The notes: generated from the letters alone by a model not told the origin. Counted from the stretch's first letter, positions 1-61,243 are shown. The stretch is 64,000 bases of DNA from an uncultured Alphaproteobacteria bacterium (GCA_944390885.1 CALXRP010000003.1:35004-99003), one strand, 5' to 3'. Numbers and translations are program-made.

Positions 1-1714
1 TTCCTTTAAATCTCTTCTTGTCTTCGCGGGCAAAACGGTAAGTCGCACTTTCGGCCGGTGTGGCTTCCAGATTATACATATGCCCTGTTTCTTCCTGAAT
101 TTTTACCATTCTGTCGCGGATATGATTCAGGAATCTTTCGGCAAAATCTTGGCCCCATTCATCTGCAACATTGTGCTCGTCATTGGTAAAGTTGCGGATC
201 ATCTCGTTAATACCGTTAACGCCGAAAGTCGAGAAGTGGTTGCGCAAAGTGCCGAGATAACGTTTGGTATATGGGAACAAGCCGTTGTCAATGAGTCTTT
301 GGATAACTTTGCGTTTGATTTCCAGAGAAGTTTTGGCCAGTTCCAGCAACTCGTCAACGCGGTTCAACAAGGCATGTTCGTCACCCTTGTAAAGGTATCC
401 CAAACGGGCACAGTTAATGGTAACAACGCCGATTGAGCCCGTTTGTTCGGCAGAACCAAACAAGCCGTTTCCTTTGGCCAAAAGCTCGCGCAGGTCAAGC
501 TGCAGGCGGCAGCACATTGAGCGAATCTGTCCCGGTTTTAAGACGGAATTGATAAAGTTCTGGAAATAAGGCAGGCCGTATTTGGCTGTCATTTCAAACA
601 AGAGTTCGGTATTTTCATCTTCCCACGGAAAATCAGGAGTCATATTGTAAGTCGGAATCGGGAAGGTGAACGGACGGCCTTTGATATCGCCTTTCATCAT
701 AACCGAAATATATGCTTTGTTAATCATATGCATTTCTTCGGTCAGATCTCCGTAAGTGAAGTCTTGCTCAACACCGGCAATCATCGGATGTTTGTCGCGC
801 AGGTCTTCCGGGCATACCCAGTCGAACGTAAAGTTGGTAAACGGTGTTTGAGAACCCCAGCGGGACGGAACATTCAGGTTATAAATCAGTTCCTGGAAAG
901 ATTGCTCAACCTGCTCATAAGTCAAATGGTCTACGCGGACATACGGTGCAAGATATGTATCGACGGAAGAAAAAGCCTGAGCACCGGCCCATTCGTTTTG
1001 CAAAGTGCCCATAAAGTTAACCATCTGGCCGACTGCAGCAGACAGGTGTTTGGCCGGACCGGCTTCCGCTTTGCCCGGAACGCCGTTAAAGCCTTCATGC
1101 AACAGGTTTTTCAACGACCAACCGGCGCAATAAGCGGCCAACATATCCAAATCGTGAATATGGAAATCGCCGTTACGGTGTGCTTCGCCGACAGCCGCCG
1201 GATAAACATGGCTCAGCCAGTAGTTGGCCGTAACCTTGCCGGAAACGTTCAAAATCAATCCACCGTTAGAGTATCCCTGGTTGGCATTGGCATTAACGCG
1301 CCAGTCCAGTTTTTCCAGATATTCATTGATGGAGCTTTCAACATCGACCATGACTTTTTTATCAGAACGCATACGGTTGCGTTGGTCACGGTATAAAATA
1401 TAAGCTTTGGCCGTTGCAAAATAGTTGGCAGAGATCAGAACCTGCTCGACAATATCCTGAATTTGTTCAATGGAAGGAAGAGACTCCGTAAACTTATGCT
1501 TCATAACCTTTAAGACCTGAGCGGTCAAAAGCCAGCTTTCCTCTTCGCCGAACTCGCCCGTCGTCGTACCGGCCTTGTTAATAGCGTTAAAAATTCTGGT
1601 GTTGTCAAACGGGGCTAAGGTACCATCTCTTTTGGTGACACTGTCAAAAGGGATGTTCTCGGCAATCTTGCTCTGAGAAATTTCGTTATCGTTCACGGAC
1701 ATATCTTCGCTCAT
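1..1714 (-). CDS. nrdD: Anaerobic ribonucleoside-triphosphate reductase (class III RNR), 3' end truncated by window edge
   Basis: Minus-strand translation from ATG at 1712-1714 (RBS GAAGGA) gives MSEDMSVNDNEI... with an N-terminal ATP-cone (VTKRDGTLAPFDNTRI). Blocks align to E. coli NrdD: LAAYCAGWSLKNLLHEGFNG, SQTPFTNFTFDW, KGRPFTFPIPTYNM, IRSMCCRLQLD. The ORF runs off position 1, so the glycyl-radical C-terminus is missing. Plus-strand ORFs 80..436 and 728..1396 are antisense artefacts. Confidence 0.8.
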   Translation of the reverse strand, partial: MSEDMSVNDNEISQSKIAENIPFDSVTKRDGTLAPFDNTRIFNAINKAGTTTGEFGEEESWLLTAQVLKVMKHKFTESLPSIEQIQDIVEQVLISANYFATAKAYILYRDQRNRMRSDKKVMVDVESSINEYLEKLDWRVNANANQGYSNGGLILNVSGKVTANYWLSHVYPAAVGEAHRNGDFHIHDLDMLAAYCAGWSLKNLLHEGFNGVPGKAEAGPAKHLSAAVGQMVNFMGTLQNEWAGAQAFSSVDTYLAPYVRVDHLTYEQVEQSFQELIYNLNVPSRWGSQTPFTNFTFDWVCPEDLRDKHPMIAGVEQDFTYGDLTEEMHMINKAYISVMMKGDIKGRPFTFPIPTYNMTPDFPWEDENTELLFEMTAKYGLPYFQNFINSVLKPGQIRSMCCRLQLDLRELLAKGNGLFGSAEQTGSIGVVTINCARLGYLYKGDEHALLNRVDELLELAKTSLEIKRKVIQRLIDNGLFPYTKRYLGTLRNHFSTFGVNGINEMIRNFTNDEHNVADEWGQDFAERFLNHIRDRMVKIQEETGHMYNLEATPAESATYRFAREDKKRFKG

Positions 1715-2228
1715 TCCTTCGTTATTATTAGTTATAAAAAACAAAATTGTTTGTGTTATCACCTGATAACAAGCATACAATATATAGTATTAACAAAATG
1801 TAAATAAGACTAGATATAGTATGCACAGAAAAATTTTTTATTTCAAAACTCTTAACGCGTATCATCTTGAATATGCTGATATTCTGAGCGAAATATATGA
1901 TGCAAACAAGGGCAAAAAAATTCTTTTTCCGGCTTGACATTGCTATCTTGCTATAATTCCACTAAAAAAAATTTTTTTAATAGTGGATAAAAAGATTAAC
2001 CTTTCTTAACAAAAAAAATATCATTGTTTTTCAACGCCATAGATTCTTGACGTAATCAACATATTTGTACACAAGAGTCACAAAAAAAGCTTAAATTTAC
2101 AAAAACTATTTTCGGTTTCAGAATCTCATTCACAAGATATTGTGCTTTATGCGGATTCGAAATACAGAATCAGGAAAAAGACTCGGTCTTTTGGTAAAAG
2201 AAGCAAAATTTTTGAGAATCGATTGGTG

Positions 2229-2500
2229 TTTTTTCCTTATCTCTAAAATTCACTTTTTATTTATTATTCTTTTTCTTATTTCTTGTTTTTTATAATTTAT
2301 TTTTATTGTTACTTTTTGGGTGCAAAGAAGCTTTTTCTTACTTTTGCTTGACCAAAAGTAAGCAAAAGTCAATCCCAACCTCATTTTCTAAGCTTTCAGC
2401 CCAAAGTTAAAGTCGCTACGCTCCAATGCTCTGTACTTCACTATTACCCCTTTGGGCCAAAAGCTAAGAAATCATTCGGTAATCGGGCTGGTCAACTCCC
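2229..2500. repeat. MITE-like repeat, long copy, upstream of nrdD
   Basis: The ends (tttttccttatctctaaaattcacttttta ... aagaaatcattcggtaatcgggctggtcaactccc) recur almost exactly at 45249-45315. Here they are separated by an approximately 210-bp AT-rich core with a perfect hairpin (cttacttttg cttgac caaaagtaag). A GC hairpin cccctcaggcttgagggg lies at the right flank. Confidence 0.4.
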
Positions 2501-2613
2501 CCGCCCCTCAGGCTTGAGGGGAGAGGGGTTTCACTTTCGGTTTTTGCTCCAAAACCTAAGCTATTCGCAAAGGGCACCCAATCGTGCCGGATGAGGGATT
2601 GTGCATTAAAGTT

Positions 2614-3209
2614 TTGTCATTCTCGGGCTTGAAGTCGATAGTTGGTGAGAACGAGTGCAAATCTCTAGCTTCAGCTTAGATTTGTACGAAGTCTGAACCC
2701 TACGGGACGCAATTGCATTCGGCGTCGCGTGCCGCAGGCACTGGGACTGCCGGATAAAATCGCTGAGCTTGCGAAGTGCCAAGGGGCCCGCGTGCGGGAA
2801 TTTACACCCGAGAATCCACAGGCGACGGCCTGAGCGATCGGTTGTCGGAATTGTGCCCTGAGGATCGCGTTGCTCCATTGCTTTCCGCGGTTAAGATTGT
2901 GCTTTGAAGGGTGGATCCCCGGTATCTTTTTCTTACGTCATTGCCGGACTTGATCCGGCAATCCACGTTAATAAATTAGCTTTATTGTTGACCTGGATCC
3001 CCGGGTCACACCCTCAGGGTGACGCCAAATGGATCCCCGGGTCAAGCCCGGGGATGACATAATAAAAAACGCAGCCCGGGGATGACCTGCACGGCAGGCG
3101 CGCGGCAAGTTGACAGCACTGTACCACAGAGGCCGCGTTGCTATGGCGGGGTCTGTGAATGGCGTTGTGCTTTGAAGGGTGGATTGCCGGGTCGAAGCCC
3201 GGCAATGAC
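2614..3209. repeat. Cluster of GC-rich palindromic composite repeats (locus 1 of 3)
   Basis: Multiple copies of an approximately 29-nt palindrome, GTCATYSCCGGGCTTGACCCGGSRATSAC, are present in both orientations. Conserved modules also recur (ccacaggcgacggcctgagcgatcggttgtcggaattgtgccc; ctgcacggcaggcgcgcggc; ccgcgttgct..ggcgg..tgtgaatgg..ttgtgctttgaagggtggat). Near-identical modules occur at 19525-19855 and 59448-59872. Spurious ORFs 2606..2878, 2968..3234 and 3014..3247 lie inside. Confidence 0.6.
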
Positions 3210-3346: not shown

Positions 3347-5245
3347 TTAGTACCGCGGGCGGGTTTCTATTTCTTTGCCGATTTCACCGTTTGCAATGTA
3401 GTCATCAACACAATTTGCTCCGCGGCAGCGTTTCAGCACCGTGGCATTCCGGCCTTTGGTCAACCCTCTGACCTGCATTGACGGCACGTAGACTTCATCG
3501 ACAATAATCTTAAACGTAATGTAATTAACATTGCCGTACTCATCTATAATATAGACCTTCACATGATAGGTTCCGCCGTCTTTCGGCATCGGCGTTCCGT
3601 AGAACGTCATTGTTTTTTCATCGAAGGTCAGCCAATCCGGCAGCGGGCTGTCATCTATCAATCCGGCTTTAAATGTCAGGTTGCCGCGAGCATTGAGATC
3701 TTTCAGAGCATCTTCCGGAATGGTATAGAGATAATCCTGTCCGGTTTCCAGTTTTTGATCAGGAATGTCTTCCGTTGACAAATTAACCGGCGGACGTTTG
3801 GACGGCACATTCAACAGATACGGACGATTATCCGGCAGAAAATCGCCATCACGCCATTTTTCCAGCGTTGTATGCAGATAAACGGCAATTTTAGACGGTT
3901 TTTCACCCAACATATAATAAGGTAGTGCGTCAAGCCCCAGCGCAGCATAAAGGTTTCCGAGCGAGGCCTGTAGTTCGATATAGGCCTTAGAAGCTTTGAC
4001 CTCATCAGCAATGGCACGCGCGGCCTCCAACAAAGATTTCGAATCGCGGCTGCCCAGTTTTACCGTAATGTCTTCGGCAATGTCTTCCGATACGTTGGCG
4101 ATTTCAATATTAATCTGATAATCTTCCAGCGCCGACATATAAGCAGCCCAGCCGACATACAGCTGGCTTAAGACCAGGTTGGTCATCCGCTGGCGGCGCA
4201 AGGCTTCCAGCTCGCCTTCCCGCGGGTTTCTGACATCTTCAAAAACATGATAGCCGATTTCCTGAGCTTTGCGGCTCCAGACTTTGTTGTAATAGGAAGG
4301 GTTGCTTTGATAATCATTTTGAGTGGTGGATTTGAACTCCTGAATGGTAAACTCCAGGTTCTCGTCAATATTCACCATATCGCGCATTTTGAGTTCCGGG
4401 CGGTTGGTCAGAGCCAGCCATTCCATATCGGCCAGCGGCGTGCGAATATCCGGCAGGGCAAAATTGCCGTACAACTTGCCGACCAGTTTGTATTCCGTTG
4501 CCGGATGAAAACCCATTAAAGCGGCCAGTTTGGTCTCGGCCGTTTCCATTCCGCGTTTTAACTCGGACAAGTTTTTAACGGCTTCCATATATTCGCGCTT
4601 TAACACCAATTTATCTGTCGGCAGATACTGATTTAATTTTGCAAGGTCTTTGGCCTGAGCATTCAGCTCGTCAACCTCCAGCGTTAAGACCTCTATCATA
4701 TCATCAATCACCGGCAGCAGGCGCTGTGCCGTCAGAGCCTGCCAATAAAGCACGCGGGTTTCCTGCAGCAGGTTGTGAATAACTTTGCGGCTCTGCTCAA
4801 AAGCCAGATTTTTGCGGTATTCCTGATCGACGGTCTGATAATAAACCGTACTCATATCCAAAAGGTTCCAGGCCAGCCGGAGCTCGGAATTGGCATCGGA
4901 CAGAGAATCGGGGCTCAGGTATCCGGCCTGCCCCATAATCTCGGGGATTTGGTTGACCGGCGACTTTCCGGCCTTTATCAAACTTTCTTCATAACTGACA
5001 ACGCGGCGGGTAAAGTTATATTTCAAGGCCAGCGCCATTGTCATATACATATCTATCGGCTTTGAGATTTTGCGCGGCTGGTTTAAGTACATATTCTGCA
5101 TATCCACGTCGGCGCGGATTGCGCTGTCCCAATCGGAATAAGTCGCCGATGATACGGTTGTTTCACTAACGGAATATTCTTCGCGCGGGCCGCAAGAAAC
5201 AACAAAAAACATGCCAAAAACCAAACATGCCAATATTTTTTTCAT
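3347..5245 (-). CDS. TolC/NodT-family outer-membrane lipoprotein with C-terminal Ig-like (cadherin-like) domain
   Basis: Signal peptide with lipobox (FFVVSCG). Long coiled-coil-rich body with the two-repeat organisation typical of outer membrane efflux proteins. C-terminal approximately 90 aa (LPDWLTFDEKTMTFYGTPMPKDGGTYHVKVYIIDEYGNVN) resembles putative-Ig/dystroglycan-type domains. Terminator-like hairpin just downstream (about 3320-3345). Confidence 0.5.
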   Translation of the reverse strand: MKKILACLVFGMFFVVSCGPREEYSVSETTVSSATYSDWDSAIRADVDMQNMYLNQPRKISKPIDMYMTMALALKYNFTRRVVSYEESLIKAGKSPVNQIPEIMGQAGYLSPDSLSDANSELRLAWNLLDMSTVYYQTVDQEYRKNLAFEQSRKVIHNLLQETRVLYWQALTAQRLLPVIDDMIEVLTLEVDELNAQAKDLAKLNQYLPTDKLVLKREYMEAVKNLSELKRGMETAETKLAALMGFHPATEYKLVGKLYGNFALPDIRTPLADMEWLALTNRPELKMRDMVNIDENLEFTIQEFKSTTQNDYQSNPSYYNKVWSRKAQEIGYHVFEDVRNPREGELEALRRQRMTNLVLSQLYVGWAAYMSALEDYQINIEIANVSEDIAEDITVKLGSRDSKSLLEAARAIADEVKASKAYIELQASLGNLYAALGLDALPYYMLGEKPSKIAVYLHTTLEKWRDGDFLPDNRPYLLNVPSKRPPVNLSTEDIPDQKLETGQDYLYTIPEDALKDLNARGNLTFKAGLIDDSPLPDWLTFDEKTMTFYGTPMPKDGGTYHVKVYIIDEYGNVNYITFKIIVDEVYVPSMQVRGLTKGRNATVLKRCRGANCVDDYIANGEIGKEIETRPRY

Positions 5246-5386: not shown

Positions 5387-6166
5387 ATGCTTGACATTTT
5401 TTATACCGTTTTTAAGTTCAAAGAAAAGGAAAGCCCTGACAAACTCGGGCTTTATCCCGAGCGCGCCCATACGCAGGCCATGCCGGAAAGACGGTATCTC
5501 TGGAGTTCCCGCATTTTGGTTATTTTAGCAGTAATCAGCATGAGCATAACAATGATGCTGGCGCTCACAATTTATCTGATGCTGCCGCAAAAAACCGTTT
5601 ATCCCCGTCTGTTGCAGATTAACAAATATTTTTCTCAGCTGGAGCTTGTGCAACCGGCCGAGCGCAGGATTTTGGTGACGGATCTGATTGCCGAGCAGCA
5701 TATTTCCGAATATATTACACTGCGCAATTCCATTACGTCTGATTATGATCAGCTGCTTTCCCGCTGGGGCGAAAGGCAGACGATATACTGGTATTCAGAA
5801 GCCAACGTATACAGCCGCTTTTACAATACCGACGTGAAATACAACCTGATACAATTTAAGAAAAACGCCCTGCAGCGCTATGTTAAAGTCGAATGGGTGC
5901 GGCCGTTGACGCTCGGCTTGTGGCAGGTGCAGTTTTTGACAATGGATATGACGCCGGATTCTGACAAGATTGATACCAAAATCTGGCGGGCAACACTGCG
6001 TATTACTTATATGAATCTGCCATTTAAGACCAAAGATGATGCAATGAAAAACCCGTTTGGATTTGTGGTAACCAATTATTCGCTCGGTTATGTCGGAACC
6101 CCGGAAACATCGCAACACTATCTGCAACGGGCAAGAGAACTGGCCGAAAGCGGACAAGGGGCATAA
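5387..6166 (+). CDS. VirB8-like bitopic inner-membrane protein (type IV secretion VirB8/DotI family candidate)
   Basis: About 45-aa cytoplasmic N-terminus, a single TM helix (ILVILAVISMSITMMLALTIYLML) and a periplasmic domain with a C-proximal NPFG motif (DDAMKNPFGFVVTNYSL) like the conserved NPxG of VirB8 homologues. The size of 259 aa is typical. Rho-independent terminator after it (ggggcataaaacagcccctttt). Confidence 0.4.
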   Translation: MLDIFYTVFKFKEKESPDKLGLYPERAHTQAMPERRYLWSSRILVILAVISMSITMMLALTIYLMLPQKTVYPRLLQINKYFSQLELVQPAERRILVTDLIAEQHISEYITLRNSITSDYDQLLSRWGERQTIYWYSEANVYSRFYNTDVKYNLIQFKKNALQRYVKVEWVRPLTLGLWQVQFLTMDMTPDSDKIDTKIWRATLRITYMNLPFKTKDDAMKNPFGFVVTNYSLGYVGTPETSQHYLQRARELAESGQGA

Positions 6167-6348: not shown

Positions 6349-7236
6349 TTGTTATGCATTAACTTAATAAAGGAGCGGAAAATGTTTGATAATCACAATT
6401 CCAATAACGGACAGCGGCCGACGCGCTGTAAATTCGGGTTAAAGTTTACGCCAAAGCCCGTAAATCCCGAACTTTCGGTTCAAGAGAACATAATGAATTT
6501 TATTAACGACTACCGCCAATGGGAAAAAGAAAATCAGCAACCGGATTATTCTCATCTGTCTACCAGAGAGGCGGTAAAGCAGATAGTTGATGATTTTCGC
6601 ACTCAGGAGCGGGAGGAAGAAGAGCAGAAGGCCAGACAGGCACAAATGCAGACGCCGTATGGTTCGGGGCAAACATCTTATGCGCCGGCGCAAAGCTCTT
6701 ACGGGACGCAACAGAATGCGAATATGTCATCGCAAGGAGCTTTCACTCCATCCGGTCAGGCAACATACGGTGCGACGGAACCAAACGGCGCGGCACAACA
6801 AGCTACAAGTTTTTGGGAAAGGTTTCGTACTCCTAAATCTTCTGTTTCAAAAGATTGGGGAAAATTGACAGAACAACATTTAAATGCCCATTTTCTTCAC
6901 GATCCCTATTATCCAGGCATAACTAACACCGGGCTAGTTGCTCCATTTAAAGATTTTATCAGAAACAAAACACAAATGGAGCAGGATGGATACATTGGAA
7001 ATGACAAATATTTTCATTGTAAGGGAAATTATCAGGCTGCTAAAAGAGGAGCTTGGGGAAAAGTTGTTGGCAGAACTTTAAGCTTCTTCAGAGAAGCTCC
7101 ATATGGGATTATAAAAGATGGTTTTCAAGCCAGTGCTGACGATTGGTATGCCAATCGCCAAGGTTGGGAAGGCGCAGCGAAAGGTCTTGACCTTGCTGAC
7201 GCTTGCTCAAGAAATCCTAGAGATTACTATAAATAA
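6349..7236 (+). CDS. Protein with C-terminal serum amyloid A (SAA)-like domain and Q/S/Y/T-rich low-complexity linker
   Basis: C-terminal block [39 protein letters not shown]...[33 protein letters not shown] aligns closely with vertebrate SAA ([23 protein letters not shown]...[20 protein letters not shown]). The central region is a Q/S/T/Y/G-rich linker. No signal peptide. RBS aaaggag 8 nt before the ATG. Confidence 0.65.
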   Translation: [295 protein letters not shown]

Positions 7237-15846: not shown

Positions 15847-18800
15847 TTACAGCTCCTTTACATAAGAAACACCCGGAAGCCCGCGGATTTTGCTCAAAAT
15901 ATCATTGGCAAAAGCGTAGCCTCCCGCCAGTTGGATACGGATATCCCAATCATTGTTTTCCGGTTTTAAATATATCTTATTAACGCCGTTTCTATCATGG
16001 CGCAGAATTTCTTTTAACGGCGCAACAGCCTCGACACTGTTCAGCCCGATGATCAGTCCGTTTACTCCGTCAGCAATTGCCTGATCCAGGGTTTCGACCG
16101 AATTAATCATAACCCGAGGGTTAGCGCCTTCTTCCTGCTTTTCAACCGTCACACCGACCAGAAGCGGCAGTCCTGAATTGATGGTGTCTTCATATTTTGC
16201 CAGCAAGTCAGAGAACAAAATTCCCTCAAAACCGCTGGATGCGTCCGACAAACCGAGAAAAGCATATTTGTTGCCGTTTTTGCTGATGCGCTTTTGAAAA
16301 GTAGTAACGCAGCCGGCCAGTTTGGCACGGACAGTGTCTCCGACCTTAACGCCGTTCATAACTTCCGCACAGCTTTTAACCCCCAAACGCTCCATGCCGG
16401 AACGATAGCTGTCTAACGGATGCGCCGAGAGGTAAAAGCCTACGGCCTCGGCCTCGAGTTTGAGTTTTTCCAATTCAGGCCAGTCGGGCTTTTCTGCCAG
16501 TTTGACTTTTGACTGGAGTTCTTCTGTCCCGAACAGAGAAGACTGCGAGCTGGTTTTCAGCTCATTGGCAGAAGAAATATGCTGCATAATCGTATCAACA
16601 TTGGCAAAAAGTTTGCCGCGGTTTTTCTCCAGGCAATCGAAAGCGCCGGCTTTAATCATATTTTCCAGCTGGCGGCGGTTGCTGTTGGCCAGCGGCATCC
16701 GGTGGATGAAATCAGAAATATCCTTAAACAGGCCGCCCTGTTTGCGGATCTCTTCAATTACTTTCATATTAGCCATACCCACGCCTTTAATCGCGGCCAG
16801 CGCATAACGAATATTACCGTCTTCCACCGTAAAGTCGGCGCCGGATTTATTGATGTCCGGCTGCAAAACCTTAATGCCCATTTTTTTACATTCTTCTTTG
16901 TAAAAAAGCAGCTTGTCGGTATTGGTGATATCAAACGCCATGATGGCGCACATAAACTCGACAGGATAATGCGCTTTCAGATAAGCGGTCTGGTATGAAA
17001 TCAGCGAATAGGCCGCGGCGTGAGATTTGTTAAAACCATAGGACGCAAATTTTTCCATCTGGTCAAAAATTTTGGTGGCGACGTCGGCGTCAATTCCTTT
17101 GGCAACGGCACCTTCGGTAAACATTTTGCGCTGTTTCGGAATCTCGTCGCGCATTTTTTTACCCATAACCTTACGCAGCTTATCCGCACCGCCCATCGTA
17201 TAGCCGCCCAGAGCCTGGGCAATTTTCATAACCTGTTCCTGATAAACCATAATGCCATAGGTTTCATCAAGAATCGGCGCAAGATCCGGGTGGAGATAAG
17301 TTATCTCTTCTTCGCCGTGCTTGCGGCGAATGTAGCTCGGAATATTGTCCATCGGCCCCGGGCGGTACAATGATACGATAGCGATCAAATCTTCAAAACG
17401 GTCCGGCTTGATTTGTTTGTGAACATCCTGCATACCGGCAGATTCAAACTGGAATACGCCGATTGTATCGCCCCGCTGCATCAGTTCATAAGTCGGCTTG
17501 TCATCAAGCGGAATATCACTCATAATCAGCTCGACGCCATAATCTTTTTTTACCCAATCGACGGCGCGCTGAATGACGGTGAGGGTTTTTAAGCCCAAGA
17601 AGTCAAACTTAATCAGGCCGGTTTCTTCAACAAATTTCATATCATACTGGGTAACCGGCATATCGGAGCGCGGATCTTTATACAGCGGTGTCAATTCTTC
17701 CAACGGACGGTCACCGATAACCACACCGGCGGCATGAACACCGGAGTGGCGGTATAAACCTTCCAATTTCATGGCGATGTCAAAAAGTTTGTTGACCTGC
17801 GGGTCGTTAACGCGCATTTCTTCCAATTCCGGCACCTGGTCGAGAGACTCCTGTAAGGTCGGATTTTTACCCTGAACGCCGGGAGGAATCATTTTACTGA
17901 TGCGGTCGGCCTGGGAATAAGGCATTTGCAAAACGCGGGCAACGTCGCGAATCACCGCCTTGGACTGTAGCTTACCGTAAGTAATAATCTGCGCGACATG
18001 ATCATAGCCGTATTTTTTTTGAACATATTCGATTGTTTTGCCGCGATTTTCCTGACAGAAGTCAACGTCAAAGTCCGGCATATTGACACGTTCCGGATTT
18101 AAGAAACGTTCAAACAGCAGGTTTAATTTTATCGGATCCAAGTCGGTAATCCGGAGCGACCAGGCAACAATTGAACCGGCACCGGAGCCACGTCCCGGCC
18201 CGACGGGAACGCCGTGGTCTTTTGACCATTGGATAAAGTCAGACACGATGAGAAAATATCCCGGGAAACCCATTTTTTTGATGACGCTTAACTCATATTC
18301 CAAGCGGGCGTAATATTCTTCATCAATTTTCTTGCGTTCTTCTTCCGTCATCTCCGGCGTATAAACCGTGGCTTCCATACGTTTCCGCAGTCCCAAATGC
18401 GCCTGTTCGTCAATATAGTCATCCTGGGTTTTGCCGTCCGGACATTCAAAAATCGGCAGCAGCGGGTTGACCTTTGAAGAAAGATAATTGCAGCGAATGG
18501 CAATGTTCACGGTATTTTGCACCGCTTCCGGCAGATCTTTGAACAGTTCAACCATTTCTTCCTGCGAGCGCAGGCGGTTGTTCGGCGAAAAACGTTTGCG
18601 GTTCGGGTTGGCAACAACTTCACCCGCGGCAATGCAAACCAGTGCGTCGTGCGCCTCGTACATGTCGGTATCAAAAAAGAAAGCCTCGTTGGTTGCCACC
18701 AGCGGAATATTGTATTTATAGGCCAAATCGATAAACGTATCTTCCGTCTTTTGTTCTTCTTCCAGGCCGATACGGGCTATTTCCATATATAAGCGGTCGC

Positions 18801-19317
18801 CGAAATATTTTTGCAATTCCAGCAGCGTGCTCTCCGCCTCCGGCGCGCGGTTTTCCAGCAGCAAACGGCCTATCGGGCCTTCGACGCCGCCGGTCAGCAT
18901 AATCAGCCCGGCATTGAATTTTTCCAGATCCGCCATGGTAATTTGCGGTTTTTCCTGCGGGTTCGGCAAATCAAGATAAGCCCGTTTCATCAGGTGCATA
19001 ATATTGCTATAGCCCTCGGCGTTCATAACCAGCAAAACAATCTTATCCGGTTCGACGATTTTTCCTTTGCATTTGAGCAAATCCTGCGAATCGGGATTGC
19101 GCAGATAGAACTGAGAACCGAGAATCGGTTTAACCCCTTCATCGGAAGCATATTTGGAAAAAGCTTTTCCGCCGAAAATATTGGCCGTATCGGTTACGGC
19201 AATTGCCGCCACGCCCTCATCATGAAGCCGGTGGATCAGTTTGGGCACAAGCATTGCGCCCTCAGACAAAGAATAAGCGGTATGCACCCGCAGATGTACA
19301 AATTTCGGTTCTGACAT
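15847..19317 (-). CDS. dnaE: DNA polymerase III alpha subunit
   Basis: 1156 aa. N-terminal PHP domain (KFVHLRVHTAYSLSEGA), the polymerase core and a C-terminal OB fold. Length and motifs are typical of DnaE. Confidence 0.95.
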   Translation of the reverse strand: MSEPKFVHLRVHTAYSLSEGAMLVPKLIHRLHDEGVAAIAVTDTANIFGGKAFSKYASDEGVKPILGSQFYLRNPDSQDLLKCKGKIVEPDKIVLLVMNAEGYSNIMHLMKRAYLDLPNPQEKPQITMADLEKFNAGLIMLTGGVEGPIGRLLLENRAPEAESTLLELQKYFGDRLYMEIARIGLEEEQKTEDTFIDLAYKYNIPLVATNEAFFFDTDMYEAHDALVCIAAGEVVANPNRKRFSPNNRLRSQEEMVELFKDLPEAVQNTVNIAIRCNYLSSKVNPLLPIFECPDGKTQDDYIDEQAHLGLRKRMEATVYTPEMTEEERKKIDEEYYARLEYELSVIKKMGFPGYFLIVSDFIQWSKDHGVPVGPGRGSGAGSIVAWSLRITDLDPIKLNLLFERFLNPERVNMPDFDVDFCQENRGKTIEYVQKKYGYDHVAQIITYGKLQSKAVIRDVARVLQMPYSQADRISKMIPPGVQGKNPTLQESLDQVPELEEMRVNDPQVNKLFDIAMKLEGLYRHSGVHAAGVVIGDRPLEELTPLYKDPRSDMPVTQYDMKFVEETGLIKFDFLGLKTLTVIQRAVDWVKKDYGVELIMSDIPLDDKPTYELMQRGDTIGVFQFESAGMQDVHKQIKPDRFEDLIAIVSLYRPGPMDNIPSYIRRKHGEEEITYLHPDLAPILDETYGIMVYQEQVMKIAQALGGYTMGGADKLRKVMGKKMRDEIPKQRKMFTEGAVAKGIDADVATKIFDQMEKFASYGFNKSHAAAYSLISYQTAYLKAHYPVEFMCAIMAFDITNTDKLLFYKEECKKMGIKVLQPDINKSGADFTVEDGNIRYALAAIKGVGMANMKVIEEIRKQGGLFKDISDFIHRMPLANSNRRQLENMIKAGAFDCLEKNRGKLFANVDTIMQHISSANELKTSSQSSLFGTEELQSKVKLAEKPDWPELEKLKLEAEAVGFYLSAHPLDSYRSGMERLGVKSCAEVMNGVKVGDTVRAKLAGCVTTFQKRISKNGNKYAFLGLSDASSGFEGILFSDLLAKYEDTINSGLPLLVGVTVEKQEEGANPRVMINSVETLDQAIADGVNGLIIGLNSVEAVAPLKEILRHDRNGVNKIYLKPENNDWDIRIQLAGGYAFANDILSKIRGLPGVSYVKEL

Positions 19318-19469: not shown

Positions 19470-19498
19470 TTGACACATACCTTTTGTTGTGCTATAGT
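19470..19498 (+). promoter_or_regulatory. Near-consensus sigma70 promoter (TTGACA-17-TATAGT) pointing into the repeat leader and the Cys-rich protein gene
   Basis: ttgaca at 19470-19475, a 17-nt spacer, then tatagt at 19493-19498. Confidence 0.45.
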
Positions 19499-19524: not shown

Positions 19525-19855
19525 GTCATCCCCGGGCTTTGACCCGGGGATCCACCTGCACGGCAGGCGCGCGGCGAATTGAATACACTGTGCTCAAGAG
19601 ACCGCGTTGCTATGACGGGGTTTGTGAATGACAAGGTGCTTTGAAATATTTGTCATTCTCGGGCTACTTGTTTTTCAAGTCATCCCCGGGCTTAACCCGG
19701 GGATCCAGAATGACAATAAAGCTAATTTATTTGACTTGGATTGCCGGGTCAAGCCCGGCAATGACAAGAAAGAAACAAGCCCGGGGATGACGAAAGAAAA
19801 AAAGAGCCCGGCAATGACTAAAAAAATAAAGCGCCCGGCAAAGACAAAGAAAAAA
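19525..19855. repeat. GC-rich palindromic composite repeat cluster (locus 2), forming the 5' leader of the Cys-rich protein gene
   Basis: Contains gtcatccccgggctttgacccggggatccac, gtcattctcggg, gtcatccccgggcttaacccggggatccag and ggattgccgggtcaagcccggcaatgac. It ends in 3-4 tandem half-sites, agcccggSRatgac plus an A-run. ORF 19628..19885 inside it is spurious. Confidence 0.6.
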
Positions 19856-19897: not shown

Positions 19898-21295
19898 ATG
19901 AAAAATTATAACACTATGCTACACATGAAACTTAACTCTGCGGTGTCGGTTCTTGCTGTTGCCGCTGCTTTTGCGGTCTTTCTCCCGCCTTCCAATGCTT
20001 CAGCTGGCATTTGTTTTCTGCCGGACTGTCAGGATGATGAGATTGTTCAGGGCGATATTAATATGAACATCAACTCCGATACCGAGTATTGCGAGGAGAA
20101 AGGCTATACCTATTATTCTTCCGGTGAATGTCCGCAATATCAAGCTGTTATCGGAACCTGTTCCCGTGATGATCATTACTTGAAATGTGATGCCGTTACC
20201 TGGTGTAAGAATAACGGGTATAATACACAAACCTGTTCTCTGCCGTCCTTTGTTAACGACCAATGTCCGAACGGCAAACCTTATTACAAAGGTTGTAAAG
20301 AAGACCGGCCGAGAGCCTGCCGTGAACAAGGCTATGTCAACTCTTGTTCTCCGGGACGGTTGTATAAATCGACAAACCGTTGTCCGTGGGATAGCTCTTA
20401 CGGCAAATGCTGTACTGCTTCGCCGTCGACAGGTTGTCCGTCTAATTATAAAGTAACTTGTGATTCTTCCCGCGGATCATCAGGAAGGGATACCTGCGGT
20501 TATACCTGTTACAGATGTTGTAATGATACCTGTCCGTCCGGGACTTCTAAAAACTATTCAGGTTCTATATCTTCTTATACAGAGTGCGGAACCGCTTGCC
20601 GGAGATGTAAAGACTGCACTACGGGAAGCCGCTCTTATACCGGTGCTTATGCCGGAACTTCAGAATGCGGTACTTGTTATAAATGTAATGACACATGTTC
20701 TTCCGGATCAAAAAGCTCTAGTTGCGGAAGCGGATATGAATCTTACCGCAGCGGTTCGACTGAATGCGGAAGTGCTTGCTACTCCTGCCGCAAACATACT
20801 CACTCTTACTCCTGCCCGAGCGGGTATCAATCCAGCTCTTGCGGATCAGGTTACACAACTTCCAGCACAAGATCTAAATCTTGTTCTTGTGGGGCAACTT
20901 ACGGTACCTGCTATAAATGCTCGAAAAATACTAATACCGGCAATAATAACAACAATAACTACACCGGTGGCGGAAATACCGGAAATAACAATAATAACAA
21001 CAATAACACCAATACAGGAACAACCACGCCTGCTGTTGATCCTGATGCTTGCAAATCAACTTATATTATTGGGGTAAGCTATGCAGGATGGTGTGACTGG
21101 TGTGATAAAGAAGGTGGACCTAAATGTATTTGGTGTAAAAGAGAACGGCGCTGTACAACCAACAGCGGTAAAGACAAATGGTTAAATGATGGATATTATA
21201 TTGCAAAAAGTGGTTATGATGGTGAAGTTAACTGCCAAGCAGCTCTTGCAGGTGGCGGCAAAAACTGCGATGAAGGTACAATTTATCCCGAATAA
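19898..21295 (+). CDS. Secreted cysteine-rich tandem-repeat protein with poly-Asn tract and PSI-like C-terminal domain
   Basis: RBS agggagg. Signal peptide MKLNSAVSVLAVAAAFAVFLPPSNASA. At least 4 tandem modules of about 30 aa (C.SG...S.S.Y.ECG.AC..C). A T/G/N-rich tract (NNNNNNYTGGGNTGNNNNNNNNTNTG). C-terminal CKSTYIIGVSYAGWCDWCDKEGGPKCIWCKRERRC. A terminator hairpin follows. Confidence 0.6.
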   Translation: MKNYNTMLHMKLNSAVSVLAVAAAFAVFLPPSNASAGICFLPDCQDDEIVQGDINMNINSDTEYCEEKGYTYYSSGECPQYQAVIGTCSRDDHYLKCDAVTWCKNNGYNTQTCSLPSFVNDQCPNGKPYYKGCKEDRPRACREQGYVNSCSPGRLYKSTNRCPWDSSYGKCCTASPSTGCPSNYKVTCDSSRGSSGRDTCGYTCYRCCNDTCPSGTSKNYSGSISSYTECGTACRRCKDCTTGSRSYTGAYAGTSECGTCYKCNDTCSSGSKSSSCGSGYESYRSGSTECGSACYSCRKHTHSYSCPSGYQSSSCGSGYTTSSTRSKSCSCGATYGTCYKCSKNTNTGNNNNNNYTGGGNTGNNNNNNNNTNTGTTTPAVDPDACKSTYIIGVSYAGWCDWCDKEGGPKCIWCKRERRCTTNSGKDKWLNDGYYIAKSGYDGEVNCQAALAGGGKNCDEGTIYPE

Positions 21296-30163: not shown

Positions 30164-30238
30164 GCCGCTATAGCTCAGTGGTAGAGCACACCCTTGGTAA
30201 GGGTGGGGTCGTAAGTCCGATTCTTACTAGCGGCACCA
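30164..30238 (+). tRNA. tRNA-Thr (anticodon GGU)
   Basis: 75-nt cloverleaf. Acceptor gccgcta/tagcggc, D-arm gctc-agtggta-gagc, anticodon stem caccc/gggtg with loop ttGGTaa, T-arm gtaag-tccgatt-cttac, discriminator A, encoded CCA. Confidence 0.85.
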
Positions 30239-30961: not shown

Positions 30962-31404
30962 AATTCTTTAACATCTCAAATCTCCTTTATACCAAATTAG
31001 CCAATCAATACCGGTTCAGAAAACACAGCCACCATAACCCGCTGCAATCTTTTACACTCAGCCATGCAATCGCTAAAATATTGATAAGGTGTTGGAAGAA
31101 TTGTGTCATTAAGTTTTACATACCACATAGTTTTTTCCTTTCATAAATAGTGTTTTGCTCATTAACTATTTATATTATGCGGTATATTTTCCCATCCGCG
31201 AGCCCCTAAAACGCTAGTTGCCAACGACATTTTGCTACGATTTGGACGGGATTACTAAGGAACGGACAAAAATCCTTTAACTTTTCGGTAAATCAGAAAA
31301 GAAGTTTTGTATAAATGATGTTTTTGATGTGATATATTAATTTGTCCAAGCCTGAAATAAAAGTACTAAAACAAAAATTTCAATATTAAGGACTATGTAT
31401 TCCT

Positions 31405-34345: not shown

Positions 34346-34479
34346 AATATTTCCCCGTATAACTATATTTTTATAGTTATACTAATTTTTACACAATAAT
34401 ATAAAAATTTAGTTAATATTAACATTAATTTAATCTTTAGCCATTAACGACATCAAACAACGACTCGTTAAAAAGCTCA

Positions 34480-34590
34480 ACTTTTCTTATTAACCGCTTA
34501 AATTCATCATAATTTTCAGTCCGATAACTGCACAGTATCGCGCACCATTTATTGAAATTCCGCATCTATTGCGGATTTTTTGTTTTTAAA
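34480..34590. repeat. Cassette-flanking repeat, copy 1 (between the R-M genes and GNAT)
   Basis: cttttcttattaaccgcttaaattcatcataattttcagtccgataactgcacag...ttccgcatctattgcggatttttt. It ends in a hairpin plus T-run (ccgcatctattgcgg tttttt). Confidence 0.5.
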
Positions 34591-35301: not shown

Positions 35302-35329
35302 TAAACTCTCATAGCAAATTTTGCTTAAG

Positions 35330-37341: not shown

Positions 37342-37349
37342 TCATCCGG

Positions 37350-59447: not shown

Positions 59448-59872
59448 CCCGGCGGGGGATGTGAAGGGTTTTGTGCTTTGAAGGGTGGATTGCCGGTATC
59501 TTTTTCTTACGTCATTGCTGGGCTTGACCCGGCAATCCACGTTAATAAAAATGCCTTATGATTGACTTGGATCCCCGGGTCAAGCCCGGGGATGACTTTA
59601 AAAAAATAAAAAGCCGGGGATGACCGGTACGACCGGTGGCGCTCAATCTGTAACATTATGCTGCAGAGACCGCGTTGCTCCGGCGGAGTTTGTGGAGGTT
59701 TTTGTGCTTTGAAGTTTATGTCATTCTCGGGCTTGACCCGAGAATCCACAGGCGACGGCCTGAACGGTCAGTTGTCGGAATTGTGCCCCGTACCCCGCGT
59801 TGCTCCGGCATTTTCTGTGAATGGCTTTGTGCTTTGAAGGGTGGATTGCCGGATCAAGTCCGGCAATGACAT
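59448..59872. repeat. GC-rich palindromic composite repeat cluster (locus 3), abutting the intact 86-aa gene
   Basis: Modules match locus 1 (ttgtgctttgaagggtggattgccgg; gtcattgctgggcttgacccggcaatccac; ttgacttggatccccgggtcaagcccggggatgac; ccacaggcgacggcctgaacggtcagttgtcggaattgtgcccc; ccgcgttgctccggc). ORFs 59268..59561, 59507..59749 and 59675..59869 inside it are spurious. Confidence 0.6.
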
Positions 59873-59895: not shown

Positions 59896-60156
59896 TTACT
59901 GCCAAGGATAGTCTTTGGCGTCGATGAGTTTTATTTCCATGACCTTATCCAGGAATGAAAACAGATATACATATTCTTCCATTCTCACATGGCAGGTGTT
60001 TCTTCTCAATTTTTCTATCCGCCCTTCCATGAAGCTTATATGGTTGGACAATTCGCTGCTGGTCAGCCCTCTTTCCGTTATTATCCGGTCTAACTCCGCA
60101 TTGCAATAACTTCGGAAAGTCTTAAACCATTCTTTTCTGTATTTTCTTGATAGCAT
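59896..60156 (-). CDS. Small hypothetical protein (86 aa); its 3' end is duplicated at 3238-3285
   Basis: Intact ORF MLSRKYRKEWFKTF...MEIKLIDAKDYPWQ with 4 Cys/His residues (C18, H39, C55, H56). Flanked by the repeat cluster. Confidence 0.45.
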   Translation of the reverse strand: MLSRKYRKEWFKTFRSYCNAELDRIITERGLTSSELSNHISFMEGRIEKLRRNTCHVRMEEYVYLFSFLDKVMEIKLIDAKDYPWQ

Positions 60157-60292
60157 TTCTTTCGCTCCTTAAATTTGTTAAAACAAAATCCGCCTAAAAA
60201 CAGGCGGATGGAACTCAAAAACTGCGATAAATCAGTCACCGTTATTCGTTACGCAAGCGCACTTATTTCCGGTACTCCGCCTAAGCGGATTT

Positions 60293-61243
60293 TTATCCTA
60301 AATAAGATTTCGGATTAACGGCTTTTTTGCCTTGGCGGATTTCAAAATGCAGCTGCGGCGAAGCAACGCCCCCGGTTGTTCCGACTGTTGATATTTTTTC
60401 TCCGCGAGCAACCCGTTGGCCTTTTTTAACCAATATTTTTTCATTATGGGCATAAGCCGTTACCCAGCCGTCATCATGCTTTATCAGGATCAGATTGCCA
60501 AAGCCTTTCAGCTCGTTTCCGGCATAAGCAACCGTTCCTTTATCTGCTGCGCGGACTGCCGTTCCTTTGGCGGCTTTGATATTAATACCGTCATTGTTCC
60601 GGCCTTTGGCAATCGGCCCGAAATTTGATATAACCGGCCCTTTAACCGGCCAGAGGAATTTGCTTTTGCGATTTTTAGAAGGCGGGGTATAAGTGTTTTT
60701 GGCCACTTTTGTTTTTGTTGTTGTGGTTTTCTTTTTGACCGTTTTAGAAGAAGAGGCTGCTTTTGATGTTGTTTTCTTTGATGTCTGTGCTTTGCGTGCC
60801 GAAGTCTGAGAAACGGAAGCAATCTGGGTTTCTCCGCCAACGATACTGTCCGGAAGCTGCAGGCGCTGTCCGACGGCTAAAGTATAGGGCGGGCGGAGGT
60901 CATTGGCCTTGCTCAGAGAATTGATGTTTACATTATAGCGTTTGGAAATATTGTATAATGTATCGCCTTTGGCAACAACATGGTAGCGGGCGCTTGGCAA
61001 ACGCACAACCTGTCCGATACGCAGACTGTAAGGAGGCTTTAAGCCGTTTAGTTCAATAATCTCGCGCAGCGGCAGATCATAGCGGCGGGAGATGCTGTAT
61101 AGCGTATCGCCCTTTTGAACAACAACCGAAGATGGCGCAGGGCCGCCCCAAAGATTGTAATTGAACAGCTGTATACGGCCGCTGTCATAAGAACAGCCGC
61201 TTAACATTGTCAACATTAATGTCAAAAGCACAAACTTTTTCAT
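60293..61243 (-). CDS. nlpD: LysM-domain M23 peptidase lipoprotein (NlpD/EnvC-like murein hydrolase activator)
   Basis: Lipobox LSGCS, two LysM repeats (VVQKGDTLYSISRRY; VVAKGDTLYNISKRY), a T/K/S-rich linker, and a C-terminal M23 domain (YAHNEKILVKKGQRVARGEKISTVGTTG). Confidence 0.8.
   Translation of the reverse strand: MKKFVLLTLMLTMLSGCSYDSGRIQLFNYNLWGGPAPSSVVVQKGDTLYSISRRYDLPLREIIELNGLKPPYSLRIGQVVRLPSARYHVVAKGDTLYNISKRYNVNINSLSKANDLRPPYTLAVGQRLQLPDSIVGGETQIASVSQTSARKAQTSKKTTSKAASSSKTVKKKTTTTKTKVAKNTYTPPSKNRKSKFLWPVKGPVISNFGPIAKGRNNDGINIKAAKGTAVRAADKGTVAYAGNELKGFGNLILIKHDDGWVTAYAHNEKILVKKGQRVARGEKISTVGTTGGVASPQLHFEIRQGKKAVNPKSYLG

What the first reader, a model, noticed from the sequence alone, without database searches (positions are those of the whole stretch)
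2614..3209. Composite GC-rich palindromic repeat family with compensatory stem variants at three loci
Three loci (2614-3209, 19525-19855, 59448-59872) in an otherwise AT-rich sequence share modules. The basic palindrome occurs as gtcatCCCcgggcttgacccgGGGatgac, gtcatTGCcgggcttgacccgGCAatgac and gtcatTCTcgggcttgacccgAGAatgac. The inner triplets covary so base-pairing is kept, which suggests selection on a DNA or RNA hairpin. It occurs in both orientations. A second conserved module (ccgcgttgct-N-ggcgg-N-tgtgaatgg-N-ttgtgctttgaagggtggat) and a ccacaggcgacggcctga..ggttgtcggaattgtgccc module accompany it. This pattern looks like a REP/BIME- or RPE-like mobile palindromic element family, or an sRNA family.
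Basis: seen in the sequence. Interest (0 to 1): 0.6.

Follow-up and report, generated by a model that had tools for sequence, protein, structure and literature searches.

The report
CGTC-type REP hairpin repeat clusters
The three GC-rich patches are clusters of a known kind of small hairpin-forming bacterial repeat (CGTC-tagged REPs, common in Alphaproteobacteria), arranged here as mosaic arrays in a gut alphaproteobacterium; the finding is real but largely ordinary.

Summary
The window holds 10 complete copies, one split copy and 9 half copies of a 29-30 nt hairpin unit, against 0 expected by chance. They lie in three intergenic clusters. The compensatory stem changes are genuine. In this lineage 99% of stem positions pair and 4 of 9 pairs change on both sides. 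In 149 copies from other genomes, 136 have perfectly complementary triplets of at least 14 kinds.

Every defining feature matches the published CGTC-tagged REP superfamily (Di Nocera et al. 2013), most like family CGTC-3. Neisseria dRS3/NIME and Rickettsia RPE-4/-6 belong to the same superfamily.

The clusters are missing from the same sites in relatives whose neighbouring proteins are 83-99% identical, so they are gained or lost quickly. Two of the three clusters travel with a small conserved 86-aa gene. No transposase is encoded in the window, and the mobilising enzyme remains unknown. Verdict: a new member of a known kind, of modest interest.

The parts
2616..2632 (+). 5' part of a split REP (TCT variant): tag GTC, arm ATTCTCGGG and loop CTTGA
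   Evidence: Sequence.
2633..2806 (.). 174-nt insertion sitting in the loop of the split REP; identity unknown
   Evidence: No Rfam match. Fold z-score only -1.5.
2807..2818 (+). 3' arm CCCGAGAAT plus CCA tail of the same split REP
2819..2911 (+). M module copy 1 (variant B).
2912..2922 (-). Orphan tail-side half REP (CCGGGGATCCA), followed by a T-rich tract
   Evidence: sequence.
2937..2965 (+). Complete REP with CGTC tag, stem ATTGCCGGA/TCCGGCAAT (compensatory GGA/TCC) and CCA tail
2994..3004 (-). Orphan tail-side half REP, next to an unrelated small hairpin (3005-3023)
   Evidence: sequence.
3030..3058 (-). Complete REP, CCC/GGG variant; convergent partner of the REP at 2937
3075..3086 (-). 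Orphan tag-side half REP (GTCATCCCCGGG)
3087..3179 (+). M module copy 2 (variant A)
   Evidence: (D1).
3180..3209 (-). Complete REP, TGC/GCA variant, with a 6-nt loop
3233..3287 (-). Remnant of the 3' end of the 86-aa gene (…KLIDAKDYPWQ*), 85% identical to 59891-59945
   Evidence: (D15).
19525..19554 (+). Complete REP, CCC/GGG variant, with a 6-nt loop
19555..19649 (+). M module copy 3 (variant A)
19652..19665 (+). Orphan tag-side half REP (TCT variant), followed by a T-rich tract
19679..19765 (.). Convergent heterodimer: REP(+) CCC at 19679-19707, a 29-nt AT-rich spacer, and REP(-) TGC at 19737-19765
   Evidence: DNA fold -27.6 kcal/mol, z -6.9.
19776..19845 (-). Tandem array of three orphan tag-side half REPs (19780-19791, 19807-19818, 19834-19845), each with a 10-13 nt T-rich tract; period about 27 nt
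   Evidence: (D4).
59448..59485 (+). Truncated M module (3' part only)
   Evidence: (D6).
59486..59496 (-). Orphan tail-side half REP (CCGGCAATCCA)
59511..59596 (.). Convergent heterodimer: REP(+) TGC at 59511-59539 (one T·G pair), a 28-nt AT-rich spacer, and REP(-) CCC at 59568-59596
   Evidence: DNA fold -27.2 kcal/mol, z -7.2. Sub-threshold WsnRNA46 match.
59613..59624 (-). Orphan tag-side half REP (GTCATCCCCGGC)
59625..59717 (+). M module copy 4 (variant A')
59720..59870 (.). Convergent heterodimer with a long spacer: REP(+) TCT at 59720-59748, M module copy 5 at 59749-59841, and REP(-) TGC (GGA/TCC) at 59842-59870
59896..60156 (-). Conserved 86-aa gene (ORF86). It is followed by REP and/or M-module arrays in five genomic contexts across related genomes; complete hairpins of this stem type lie next to it in four of them.
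60157..60296 (-). Conserved leader of ORF86, with an intrinsic-terminator-like hairpin (60188-60209) just before the ribosome-binding site

Best explanation
The three loci are clusters of CGTC-tagged repetitive extragenic palindromes (REPs), most like family CGTC-3. They lie in the chromosome of an uncultured gut alphaproteobacterium related to 'Proteobacteria bacterium CAG:495'.

Each unit has an unpaired (C/T)GTC tag, a 9-bp stem that starts with AT, a 5-nt loop (CTTGA) and an unpaired CCA tail. Units pair up as convergent heterodimers around a conserved spacer. The spacer is either a 28-nt AT-rich sequence or a ~93-nt 'M' module. Dimers, half units and M modules are stacked into mosaic arrays, as in the Neisseria dRS3/NIME arrays, which belong to the same superfamily.

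What is shown: the structure, the compensatory evolution, the wide distribution, the absence of the clusters at orthologous sites in close relatives, and co-travel with an 86-aa gene.

What is inferred: the hairpin, formed in single-stranded DNA (or RNA), is the feature under selection because a trans-acting enzyme recognises it. That enzyme copies or recombines the units and is not encoded here; no enzyme is known for this class. The arrays then grow and shuffle by breakage and joining at or next to the hairpin loop. Once inserted, the units are co-transcribed with neighbouring genes and may secondarily alter mRNA stability.
For: Structure: 10 complete units, all with a 9-bp stem, an AT start and a CCA tail. 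Eight have a 5-nt loop and two a 6-nt loop. Tags are TGTC x6, CGTC x2 and AGTC x2. Single units fold at -9 to -11 kcal/mol as DNA, z -4 to -5.7.

Covariation: on 18 units of this lineage, 99.2% of stem cells pair and 4 of 9 pairs change on both sides. No shuffle out of 500 reaches the observed score, and slid controls fall to 17-55% paired. In other genomes 136 of 149 pattern matches have complementary free triplets of at least 14 kinds.

Family features in 224 units from 119 genome loci: tag CGTC 158 and TGTC 53; tail CCA 221; 9-bp stem with 5-nt loop 195; convergent dimers 73 against 6 and 1; heterodimers 72 against 1; median spacer 28. These match the published description.

Distribution: mostly Alphaproteobacteria, including Bradyrhizobium, Rhodopseudomonas and Agrobacterium, where CGTC-3 was described.

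Turnover: 868 bp in the window stand against 68 bp in a relative with 95% identical SecD. The dnaE-upstream spacer is 581 bp here, against about 218 bp in a strain with 99% identical DnaE and 158 bp at 83%, both without REPs. Contigs of relatives often end at these sites.

Loop as a break or insertion point: there is one REP split by 174 nt in its loop, half units end at the loop, and large-loop REPs are common in other genomes.

Not terminators: none is scored as a terminator, and the T-rich tract lies 5' of the hairpin.
Against: No mobilising enzyme was identified. None of the 48 ORFs scanned in the window has a transposase domain, and the only recombinase trace is a truncated serine-recombinase zinc ribbon in an unrelated island. 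A search for genes recurrently flanked by REPs in 1.8 Mb of fetched loci found only phage capsid-region genes.

No target-site duplication is visible at dimer ends, and no clean empty-versus-filled site with exact junctions was obtained. Both polymorphic sites also differ in other sequence.

Loci 1 and 3 are related by segmental duplication, so they do not count as independent insertions. Only a 64-kb window of this genome was seen, so the copy number is unknown.

G·T mismatches outnumber A·C (14 to 4). This hints at a strand-specific, possibly RNA-level, constraint that the DNA model does not need.
Confidence: 0.75

Rival explanations
1. The arrays are substrates of a site-specific recombinase, as proposed for Neisseria NIME arrays. 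They are the means by which a small gene cassette moves between chromosomal sites. The cassette is a promoter-leader, the 86-aa gene ORF86 and a REP/M array. On this view individual REPs do not transpose; whole cassettes recombine at the hairpins.
For: ORF86 is followed by REP dimers and/or M modules in five unrelated contexts: M23/yajC here, RNase J (L131), virB11 (L136, L139), an ABC transporter (L144) and adhE (L145). Complete hairpins of this stem type lie next to it in four of them; L136 has hairpins of another stem type and L145 has only M-like modules. In those loci REPs are found almost only next to ORF86. Locus 1 keeps the last 16 codons of ORF86 next to its array. Half units end at the loop. 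The NIME hypothesis and the phage recombinase that targets dRS3 are in the literature.
Against: Locus 2 has an array and no trace of ORF86. The left edge of the cassette carries no REP. No recombinase gene lies nearby. ORF86 is only a weak HTH candidate (Pfam HTH_26, E = 0.066), and its predicted structure has low confidence (pLDDT 61).
Confidence: 0.25
2. The units function mainly as RNA, as co-transcribed hairpins that stabilise or process mRNAs or as an sRNA family. The covariation then reflects selection on RNA structure.
For: A strong promoter-like site (TTGACA-17-TATAGT, 11 of 12 positions) at 19470-19498 would transcribe cluster 2 as the 5' UTR of the gene at 19898. Cluster 3 lies in the 3' UTR of ORF86. 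G·T mismatches exceed A·C, 14 to 4. REPs sit next to major-capsid genes in prophage contigs. There is a sub-threshold match to the expressed Wolbachia WsnRNA46. The literature favours transcription of many REPs.
Against: Units occur in both orientations relative to transcription, so a single RNA sees half of them as the complement. No Rfam family reaches threshold. The M module has only a weak consensus fold, -9.9 kcal/mol. The clusters are absent from very close relatives, so they cannot be essential regulators. No expression data are available.
Confidence: 0.25
3. The loci are decayed fragments of a larger mobile element, such as an IS, a group II intron or a prophage end, and not a repeat family in their own right.
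For: There is a 174-nt unidentified insertion inside one REP. A further unrelated repeat lies next to cluster 1 at 2360-2509. The pattern also occurs in 104 viral or prophage contigs.
Against: No intron or IS RNA or protein signature is present. The unit is 29 nt and recurs as the same structure, with varying stems, across hundreds of unrelated genomes.
Confidence: 0.03

Closest known systems
CGTC-tagged REPs, family CGTC-3 (Di Nocera, De Gregorio & Rocco 2013, BMC Genomics 14:522; described in Bradyrhizobium, Rhodopseudomonas palustris, Agrobacterium tumefaciens)
   Same: It shares the (C/T)GTC tag, the 9-bp stem starting with AT, the 5-nt loop and the CCA tail. It also shares the convergent heterodimers with 20-100 nt conserved spacers, the intergenic location, the alphaproteobacterial host and the lack of an adjacent transposase. 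Identical 29-mers occur in those genera.
   Different: Here the units are clustered in mosaic arrays; the paper calls clusters rare for CGTC REPs. They come with tandem half units, T-rich 5' flanks and a lineage-specific 93-nt spacer module. The host is a 43% G+C gut bacterium. The family number (3 or 4) is assigned from the text criteria and shared hosts, because the paper's consensus figure could not be read.
Neisseria dRS3 repeats and NIME arrays (CGTC-1 in the same classification)
   Same: Both are arrays of hairpin repeats that separate families of 19-214 bp repeat modules. Both lie in intergenic regions and vary in length and content between strains. Both belong to the same superfamily according to the 2013 paper.
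   Different: dRS3 is ATTCCC-N8-GGGAAT, an 8-bp stem with a 4-nt loop. The modules differ. The window's arrays are short, with 3-8 units. NIMEs were said not to occur outside Neisseria.
Rickettsia RPE-4/RPE-6 and Wolbachia CGTC-4 clusters (including the repeat behind Rfam WsnRNA46)
   Same: They belong to the same superfamily and occur in alphaproteobacteria. The Wolbachia units are also clustered, and the dimer gives a weak WsnRNA46 match.
   Different: The Rickettsia elements are often inside genes. The Wolbachia dimers have 1-2 bp spacers. The Rfam score is far below threshold, 32 bits against 65.
GTAG REPs / BIMEs / REPINs with RAYT transposases (Escherichia coli, Pseudomonas)
   Same: Both are short tagged hairpins that occur as inverted dimers with compensatory stem variants, and both are presumed non-autonomous elements.
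   Different: The tag is CGTC/TGTC and not GTAG. No RAYT is known for this class, and none is in the window.

Membership tests
CGTC-tagged REP superfamily | Unpaired terminal tag CGTC (often TGTC or CCTC) | tested here: met
   Window: TGTC x6, CGTC x2, AGTC x2. Other genomes: CGTC 158 and TGTC 53 of 224. Criterion taken.
CGTC-tagged REP superfamily | Stem of 8-9 bp whose first two pairs are A-T and T-A | tested here: met
   9-bp stem in 10 of 10 units. The AT columns are invariant in 18 of 18 lineage copies.
CGTC-tagged REP superfamily | Loop of 4-5 nt | tested here: met
   5-nt loop (CTTGA or CTTAA) in 8 of 10 units. The other two have 6 nt from a one-base insertion.
CGTC-tagged REP superfamily | Short unpaired 3' tail fitting CCA | tested here: met
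   CCA in 10 of 10 window units and in 221 of 224 elsewhere.
CGTC-tagged REP superfamily | Mostly inverted (HH) dimers; heterodimers in CGTC-2 and CGTC-3 | tested here: met
   Four convergent pairs in the window, all with different stems. Elsewhere 73 convergent against 6 and 1, and 72 hetero against 1 homo. That my 'convergent' orientation equals the paper's 'HH' is assumed.
CGTC-tagged REP superfamily | Multi-copy family dispersed in the genome | not testable with these tools
   Only 64 kb of this genome is available, holding three clusters.
Neisseria NIME array | dRS3 unit ATTCCCNNNNNNNNGGGAAT | tested here: not met
   The unit here is AT-NNN-CGGG/CCCG-NNN-AT, with a 9-bp stem and a 5-nt loop. 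Definition.
Neisseria NIME array | Hairpin repeats flanking families of ~50-150 bp repeat modules, stacked in arrays that vary between strains | tested here: met
   The 93-nt M module (5 full copies and 1 truncated) and the 28-nt spacer lie between REPs. The arrays are absent or different in relatives.
GTAG REP / REPIN-RAYT system | GTAG tag next to the hairpin | tested here: not met
   The tag is (C/T/A)GTC in all units.
GTAG REP / REPIN-RAYT system | A RAYT (Y1 HUH transposase) gene flanked by the repeats | tested here: inconclusive
   No transposase domain in the 48 window ORFs scanned. The rest of the genome was not seen. The literature reports none for CGTC REPs.
Rfam WsnRNA46 (RF02625) | Score at or above the gathering threshold (65.3 bits) | tested here: not met
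   32.1 bits at 59497-59614 and 25.2 bits at 2923-3075.
Intrinsic terminator | GC-rich hairpin followed by a T run | tested here: not met
   No REP is scored as a terminator. The T-rich tract precedes the hairpin.
MITE | Terminal inverted repeats plus a target-site duplication, with a parent IS | tested here: inconclusive
   The dimers have hairpin inverted ends. No direct repeat is visible at dimer ends (sequences), and no parent IS was seen.

The most novel reading that the evidence does not exclude
The REP/M arrays may be the recombination ends of a small mobile cassette that carries the conserved 86-aa gene, together with its structured leader. This would be an integron- or NIME-like gene-shuffling system built on CGTC REPs, and ORF86 would possibly be the hairpin-binding factor. 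It would give the first handle on how CGTC REPs, which have no known transposase, are moved, and it would extend NIME-type arrays beyond Neisseria.
Probability: 0.1. Interest if true: 0.65.

Novelty: new member of a known kind. Interest (0 to 1): 0.3.

Why it matters
This class of repeat has been catalogued since 2013, so the finding mainly adds a host (a gut alphaproteobacterium) and a clustered, mosaic layout that was previously noted only for Neisseria and Wolbachia.

Its modest value lies in an open question. No enzyme is known to move CGTC REPs, and it was unclear whether new copies still form. Three observations here are concrete material for testing how these repeats spread:
- the clusters differ between strains whose DnaE is 99% identical;
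- half units break at the hairpin loop;
- the arrays travel with one small gene.

In practice, the clusters also explain why metagenomic contigs of this lineage break at these sites, and why spurious ORFs such as 'VIPGLDPGIH' or 'WIPGSSPGMT' get called.

Tried and rejected
- Rfam at gathering score on the window and on 18 related loci found only tRNAs, rRNA, a group I intron and the ffh sRNA. Permissive scans gave only sub-threshold palindrome-driven hits to WsnRNA46 and plant or animal miRNA precursors.
- A metagenome scan with the M-module word TGTGCTTTGAAGGGTGGAT returned 3 chance matches in unrelated coding DNA. M therefore looks lineage-specific, but that collection holds few gut samples.
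- BLAST of the window against the 119 genome loci gave no hits, so the source genome was not captured.
- A full-text search for the sequence and for the spurious-peptide strings found nothing. The RIME and WsnRNA46 literature searches added nothing decisive.
- Consensus folding of the M module on both strands gave only weak structures, about -10 and -7 kcal/mol.
- The 174-nt loop insert has no family match and an unremarkable fold.
- ORF86 has no significant Pfam or PHROG match. Its AlphaFold model has pLDDT 61, too poor for a fold search.
- The hunt for a REP-flanked transposase in 1.8 Mb of fetched loci found that the only recurrent REP-flanked genes look like HK97-type capsid, protease and connector genes of related prophages. 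That identification is from the sequences only, not from a family search.
- The promoter-leader module of ORF86 has no other copy in the window.

Full report
**What is in the sequence**

- Locus 1 (about 2616-3209) lies 3' of a 632-aa gene on the minus strand (3347-5245).
- Locus 2 (19525-19845) lies between the divergent dnaE gene (15847-19317, minus strand) and a 465-aa gene (19898-21295, plus strand).
- Locus 3 (59448-59870) lies between yajC (58883-59275, minus strand) and an M23 peptidase gene (60293-61243, minus strand).

A pattern search for GTCATNNNCGGGCTTGACCCGNNNATCCA with up to three mismatches finds 8 copies, where 100 shuffles give none. A structure-aware scan finds 10 complete units, all inside the three loci. 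The half-unit word gives 16 hits against 0.18 expected.

That form has no match even with one mismatch allowed. The real unit is an unpaired tag xGTC, a 9-bp stem AT-NNN-CGGG, a loop CTTGA, the complementary arm and an unpaired tail CCA. The window is 42.8% G+C and the loci are 49-56%, so 'GC-rich in an AT-rich sequence' is an overstatement.

**Is the covariation real?**

Yes. I aligned 18 units from the window and from related contigs. In that alignment 99.2% of stem cells pair, and four of nine pairs show changes on both sides (U-A/C-G, C-G/G-C, C-G/U-A, G-C/A-U). None of 500 shuffles reaches the observed score, and sliding the partner by 1-3 columns drops pairing to 17-55%.

An independent test uses the public genome collection. 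The search pattern left the two triplets free, yet 136 of 149 matches had perfectly complementary triplets of at least 14 different kinds. Single units fold at -9 to -11 kcal/mol as DNA (z -4 to -5.7), and dimers at about -27 kcal/mol (z about -7).

**What it is**

These are overwhelmingly Alphaproteobacteria (Bradyrhizobium, Rhodopseudomonas, Agrobacterium, Shinella, Martelella and many MAGs), with a few Patescibacteria, Chloroflexi and a Treponema.

Across those loci I collected 224 units:

| Feature | Count |
|---|---|
| Tag CGTC / TGTC | 158 / 53 |
| Tail CCA | 221 |
| 9-bp stem with 5-nt loop | 195 |
| Pairs: convergent / tag-to-tag / head-to-tail | 73 / 6 / 1 |
| Convergent pairs with different stems / same stem | 72 / 1 |
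| Median spacer between convergent partners | 28 nt |

This is, feature for feature, the 'CGTC-tagged REP' superfamily described by Di Nocera, De Gregorio and Rocco (BMC Genomics 2013; PMC3733652):
- a tag CGTC, often TGTC;
- stems of 8-9 bp beginning with complementary AT;
- loops of 4-5 nt;
- a CCA tail;
- predominantly HH dimers, which are heterodimers in CGTC-2 and CGTC-3;
- a predominance in Alphaproteobacteria;
- no associated transposase.

The 9-bp stem and 5-nt loop fit CGTC-3 or CGTC-4. Identical 29-mers occur in Bradyrhizobium, R. palustris and Agrobacterium, the hosts named for CGTC-3, so I favour CGTC-3. I could not see the paper's consensus figure.

The same paper places Neisseria dRS3 (the hairpins of NIME arrays) in CGTC-1. 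It places Rickettsia RPE-6 and RPE-4 in CGTC-1 and CGTC-4, and it notes clustered CGTC-4 units in Wolbachia. Consistent with that, the only Rfam signal is a sub-threshold match of the dimers to Wolbachia WsnRNA46, 32 bits against a gathering score of 65. No Rfam family covers these units in the window or in 18 related loci.

**The composite architecture**

- M begins with a small hairpin whose stem also varies with compensation: CCTGC...GCAGG, CCGGT...ACCGG and CAGGC...GCCTG.
- M contains two conserved words, CGCGTTGCT and GTGCTTTGAA.
- Its consensus fold is weak.
- M serves as a long spacer between REPs. For example, 59720-59870 is REP, M and inverted REP.
- A conserved 28-29-nt AT-rich spacer is used in the short dimers at 19679-19765 and 59511-59596.

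Around these units lie orphan half REPs. Six are tag-side halves and three are tail-side halves. Each ends at or next to the loop, and a 10-16-nt T-rich tract separates it from the next unit. Three tag-side halves form a ~27-nt-period tandem array at 19776-19845.

One REP (2616-2632 plus 2807-2818) is split in its loop by 174 nt of unidentified sequence. REPs with large loop inserts are also common in the other genomes.

This mosaic of hairpins and repeat modules is organised like Neisseria NIME arrays, in which dRS3 units flank ~50-150-bp RS elements. Those arrays were stated not to occur outside Neisseria. The 2013 paper calls clusters rare for CGTC REPs, except in Neisseria and Wolbachia.

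**Host and turnover**

SecD and DnaE are 79-81% identical to those of 'Proteobacteria bacterium CAG:495' and of many gut alphaproteobacterial MAGs.

*Locus 3.* A contig with 95% identical SecD has a 232-bp spacer and no REP in 18 kb. One at 87% identity has 105 bp and none in 21 kb. The window has 868 bp where the 95% relative has 68 bp.

*Locus 2.* A strain with 99% identical DnaE has about 218 bp upstream of dnaE and no REP. However, the divergent gene there starts differently, so the site is also a rearrangement point. A relative at 83% identity has 158 bp and no REP.

*Contig ends.* Several contigs of relatives end exactly at these places, as expected for repeats.

The clusters are therefore gained or lost on a strain-level time scale. 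This bears on the open question in the 2013 paper of whether CGTC REPs still form. I did not obtain a clean empty-versus-filled pair with exact junctions, and I see no target-site duplication.

**Association with a small gene**

The 868-bp segment at locus 3 also holds an 86-aa ORF (59896-60156, minus strand). A conserved leader precedes it and ends in a terminator-like hairpin just before the ribosome-binding site.

The protein is conserved: 12 clusters at 69-95% identity, with no significant Pfam or PHROG match. It occurs in five different genomic contexts in related genomes:
- after the M23 peptidase gene (this window);
- after RNase J;
- after virB11;
- after an ABC transporter gene;
- next to adhE.

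In each context REP dimers and/or M modules follow it, sometimes built on a different hairpin stem but with the same AT-rich spacer. Complete hairpins of this stem type lie next to it in four of the five. Locus 1 retains the last 16 codons of this ORF next to its array. It also shares a further piece of yajC-upstream sequence with locus 3, so loci 1 and 3 are paralogous segments and not independent REP insertions. Locus 2 has no trace of the ORF.

**How it most likely works**

*Shown.* The units form a conserved, compensated hairpin with unpaired tag and tail. They have a dimeric and mosaic organisation, a very wide distribution and rapid turnover. No REP is followed by a T run, so they are not intrinsic terminators.

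*Inferred.* The hairpin is maintained because it is what a trans-acting enzyme recognises, most plausibly on single-stranded DNA as for GTAG REPs and their RAYT transposases. The arrays grow by breakage and joining at the loop.

*Caveats.* The enzyme is unknown. None of the 48 window ORFs scanned has a transposase domain. A search for genes recurrently flanked by REPs in 1.8 Mb of fetched loci found only genes that look like phage capsid-region genes.

An RNA-level role is not excluded and may coexist:
- A strong promoter-like site at 19470-19498 would transcribe cluster 2 as a 5' UTR.
- Cluster 3 lies in the 3' UTR of the small ORF.
- G·T mismatches outnumber A·C by 14 to 4.

**Verdict**

The element is a new member of a known kind, CGTC-type REPs. 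Its less common clustered, NIME-like layout and its linkage to a small conserved gene deserve a note, but they do not change the classification.

Noticed in passing
window 59896-60296 (minus strand); L131 9780-10261; L136 9770-10261; L144 5780-6261: A conserved 86-aa gene of unknown function sits in five different genomic contexts in related genomes. A ~200-nt leader precedes it: a TTGCAA-17-TATAAT promoter, hairpins, and an intrinsic-terminator-like hairpin just before the ribosome-binding site. This looks like an attenuator or riboswitch-type leader. No Rfam match.
   Followed up: partly
window 2360-2509; L122 730-867 and 968-1091; L124 17-102: A second repeat family, unrelated to the REPs (89% identical between the window and L122), lies next to REP cluster 1. 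It also lies upstream of yajC in relatives.
   Followed up: no
window 2633-2806: A 174-nt sequence of unknown identity is inserted exactly in the loop of a REP. It has no family match and no notable fold.
   Followed up: partly
window 1400-2600: About 1.2 kb has no ORF of 100 aa or more. It is AT-rich and contains repeat fragments, including a paralogue (2269-2345) of the yajC-upstream segment 59377-59447.
   Followed up: no
window 30164-37400: A low-GC island (28-33% G+C) lies directly after tRNA-Thr. It carries a truncated serine-recombinase zinc-ribbon ORF, type I restriction-modification S and M subunits, a GNAT acetyltransferase and a Fic protein. It is probably an integrated island.
   Followed up: partly
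window 6349-7236 (+), next to 5387-6166 (VirB8): A 295-aa ORF has a significant match to the Pfam serum amyloid A domain (E = 1.6e-13, above the cut-off), which is unusual for a bacterium. It lies beside a VirB8-like gene.
   Followed up: no
window 19470-19498 (+): A near-consensus extended -10 promoter (TTGACA-17-TG-TATAGT) points into REP cluster 2. The whole cluster would therefore be a ~390-nt 5' UTR of the gene at 19898.
   Followed up: no
window, all six M modules (2819-2911, 3087-3179, 19555-19649, 59448-59485, 59625-59717, 59749-59841): All M modules are on the + strand although the neighbouring genes differ in orientation. Five of the six tag-side half REPs are on the - strand. This may reflect a replication-strand bias, but there are too few copies to test.
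   Followed up: no
L154, L163, L185, L247 (viral contigs): CGTC REPs flank what look like HK97-type major capsid, protease and connector genes in related prophage contigs. The gene identities are judged from the sequences only. The pattern occurs in 104 viral contigs in all.
   Followed up: partly
L122 1200-1480; L125 240-350: Long purine-rich tandem repeats (GGAGAGGGAA-like) lie upstream of yajC in relatives with 91% identical SecD. They are absent from the window.
   Followed up: no
L013 (Treponema MAG) about 130-830 and 7150: Dense tandem arrays of REP-like half units (GTCATTGCCGGG..., CCCGACAATGAC) occur in a spirochaete contig. This suggests array formation from half units in a distant phylum.
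   Followed up: no
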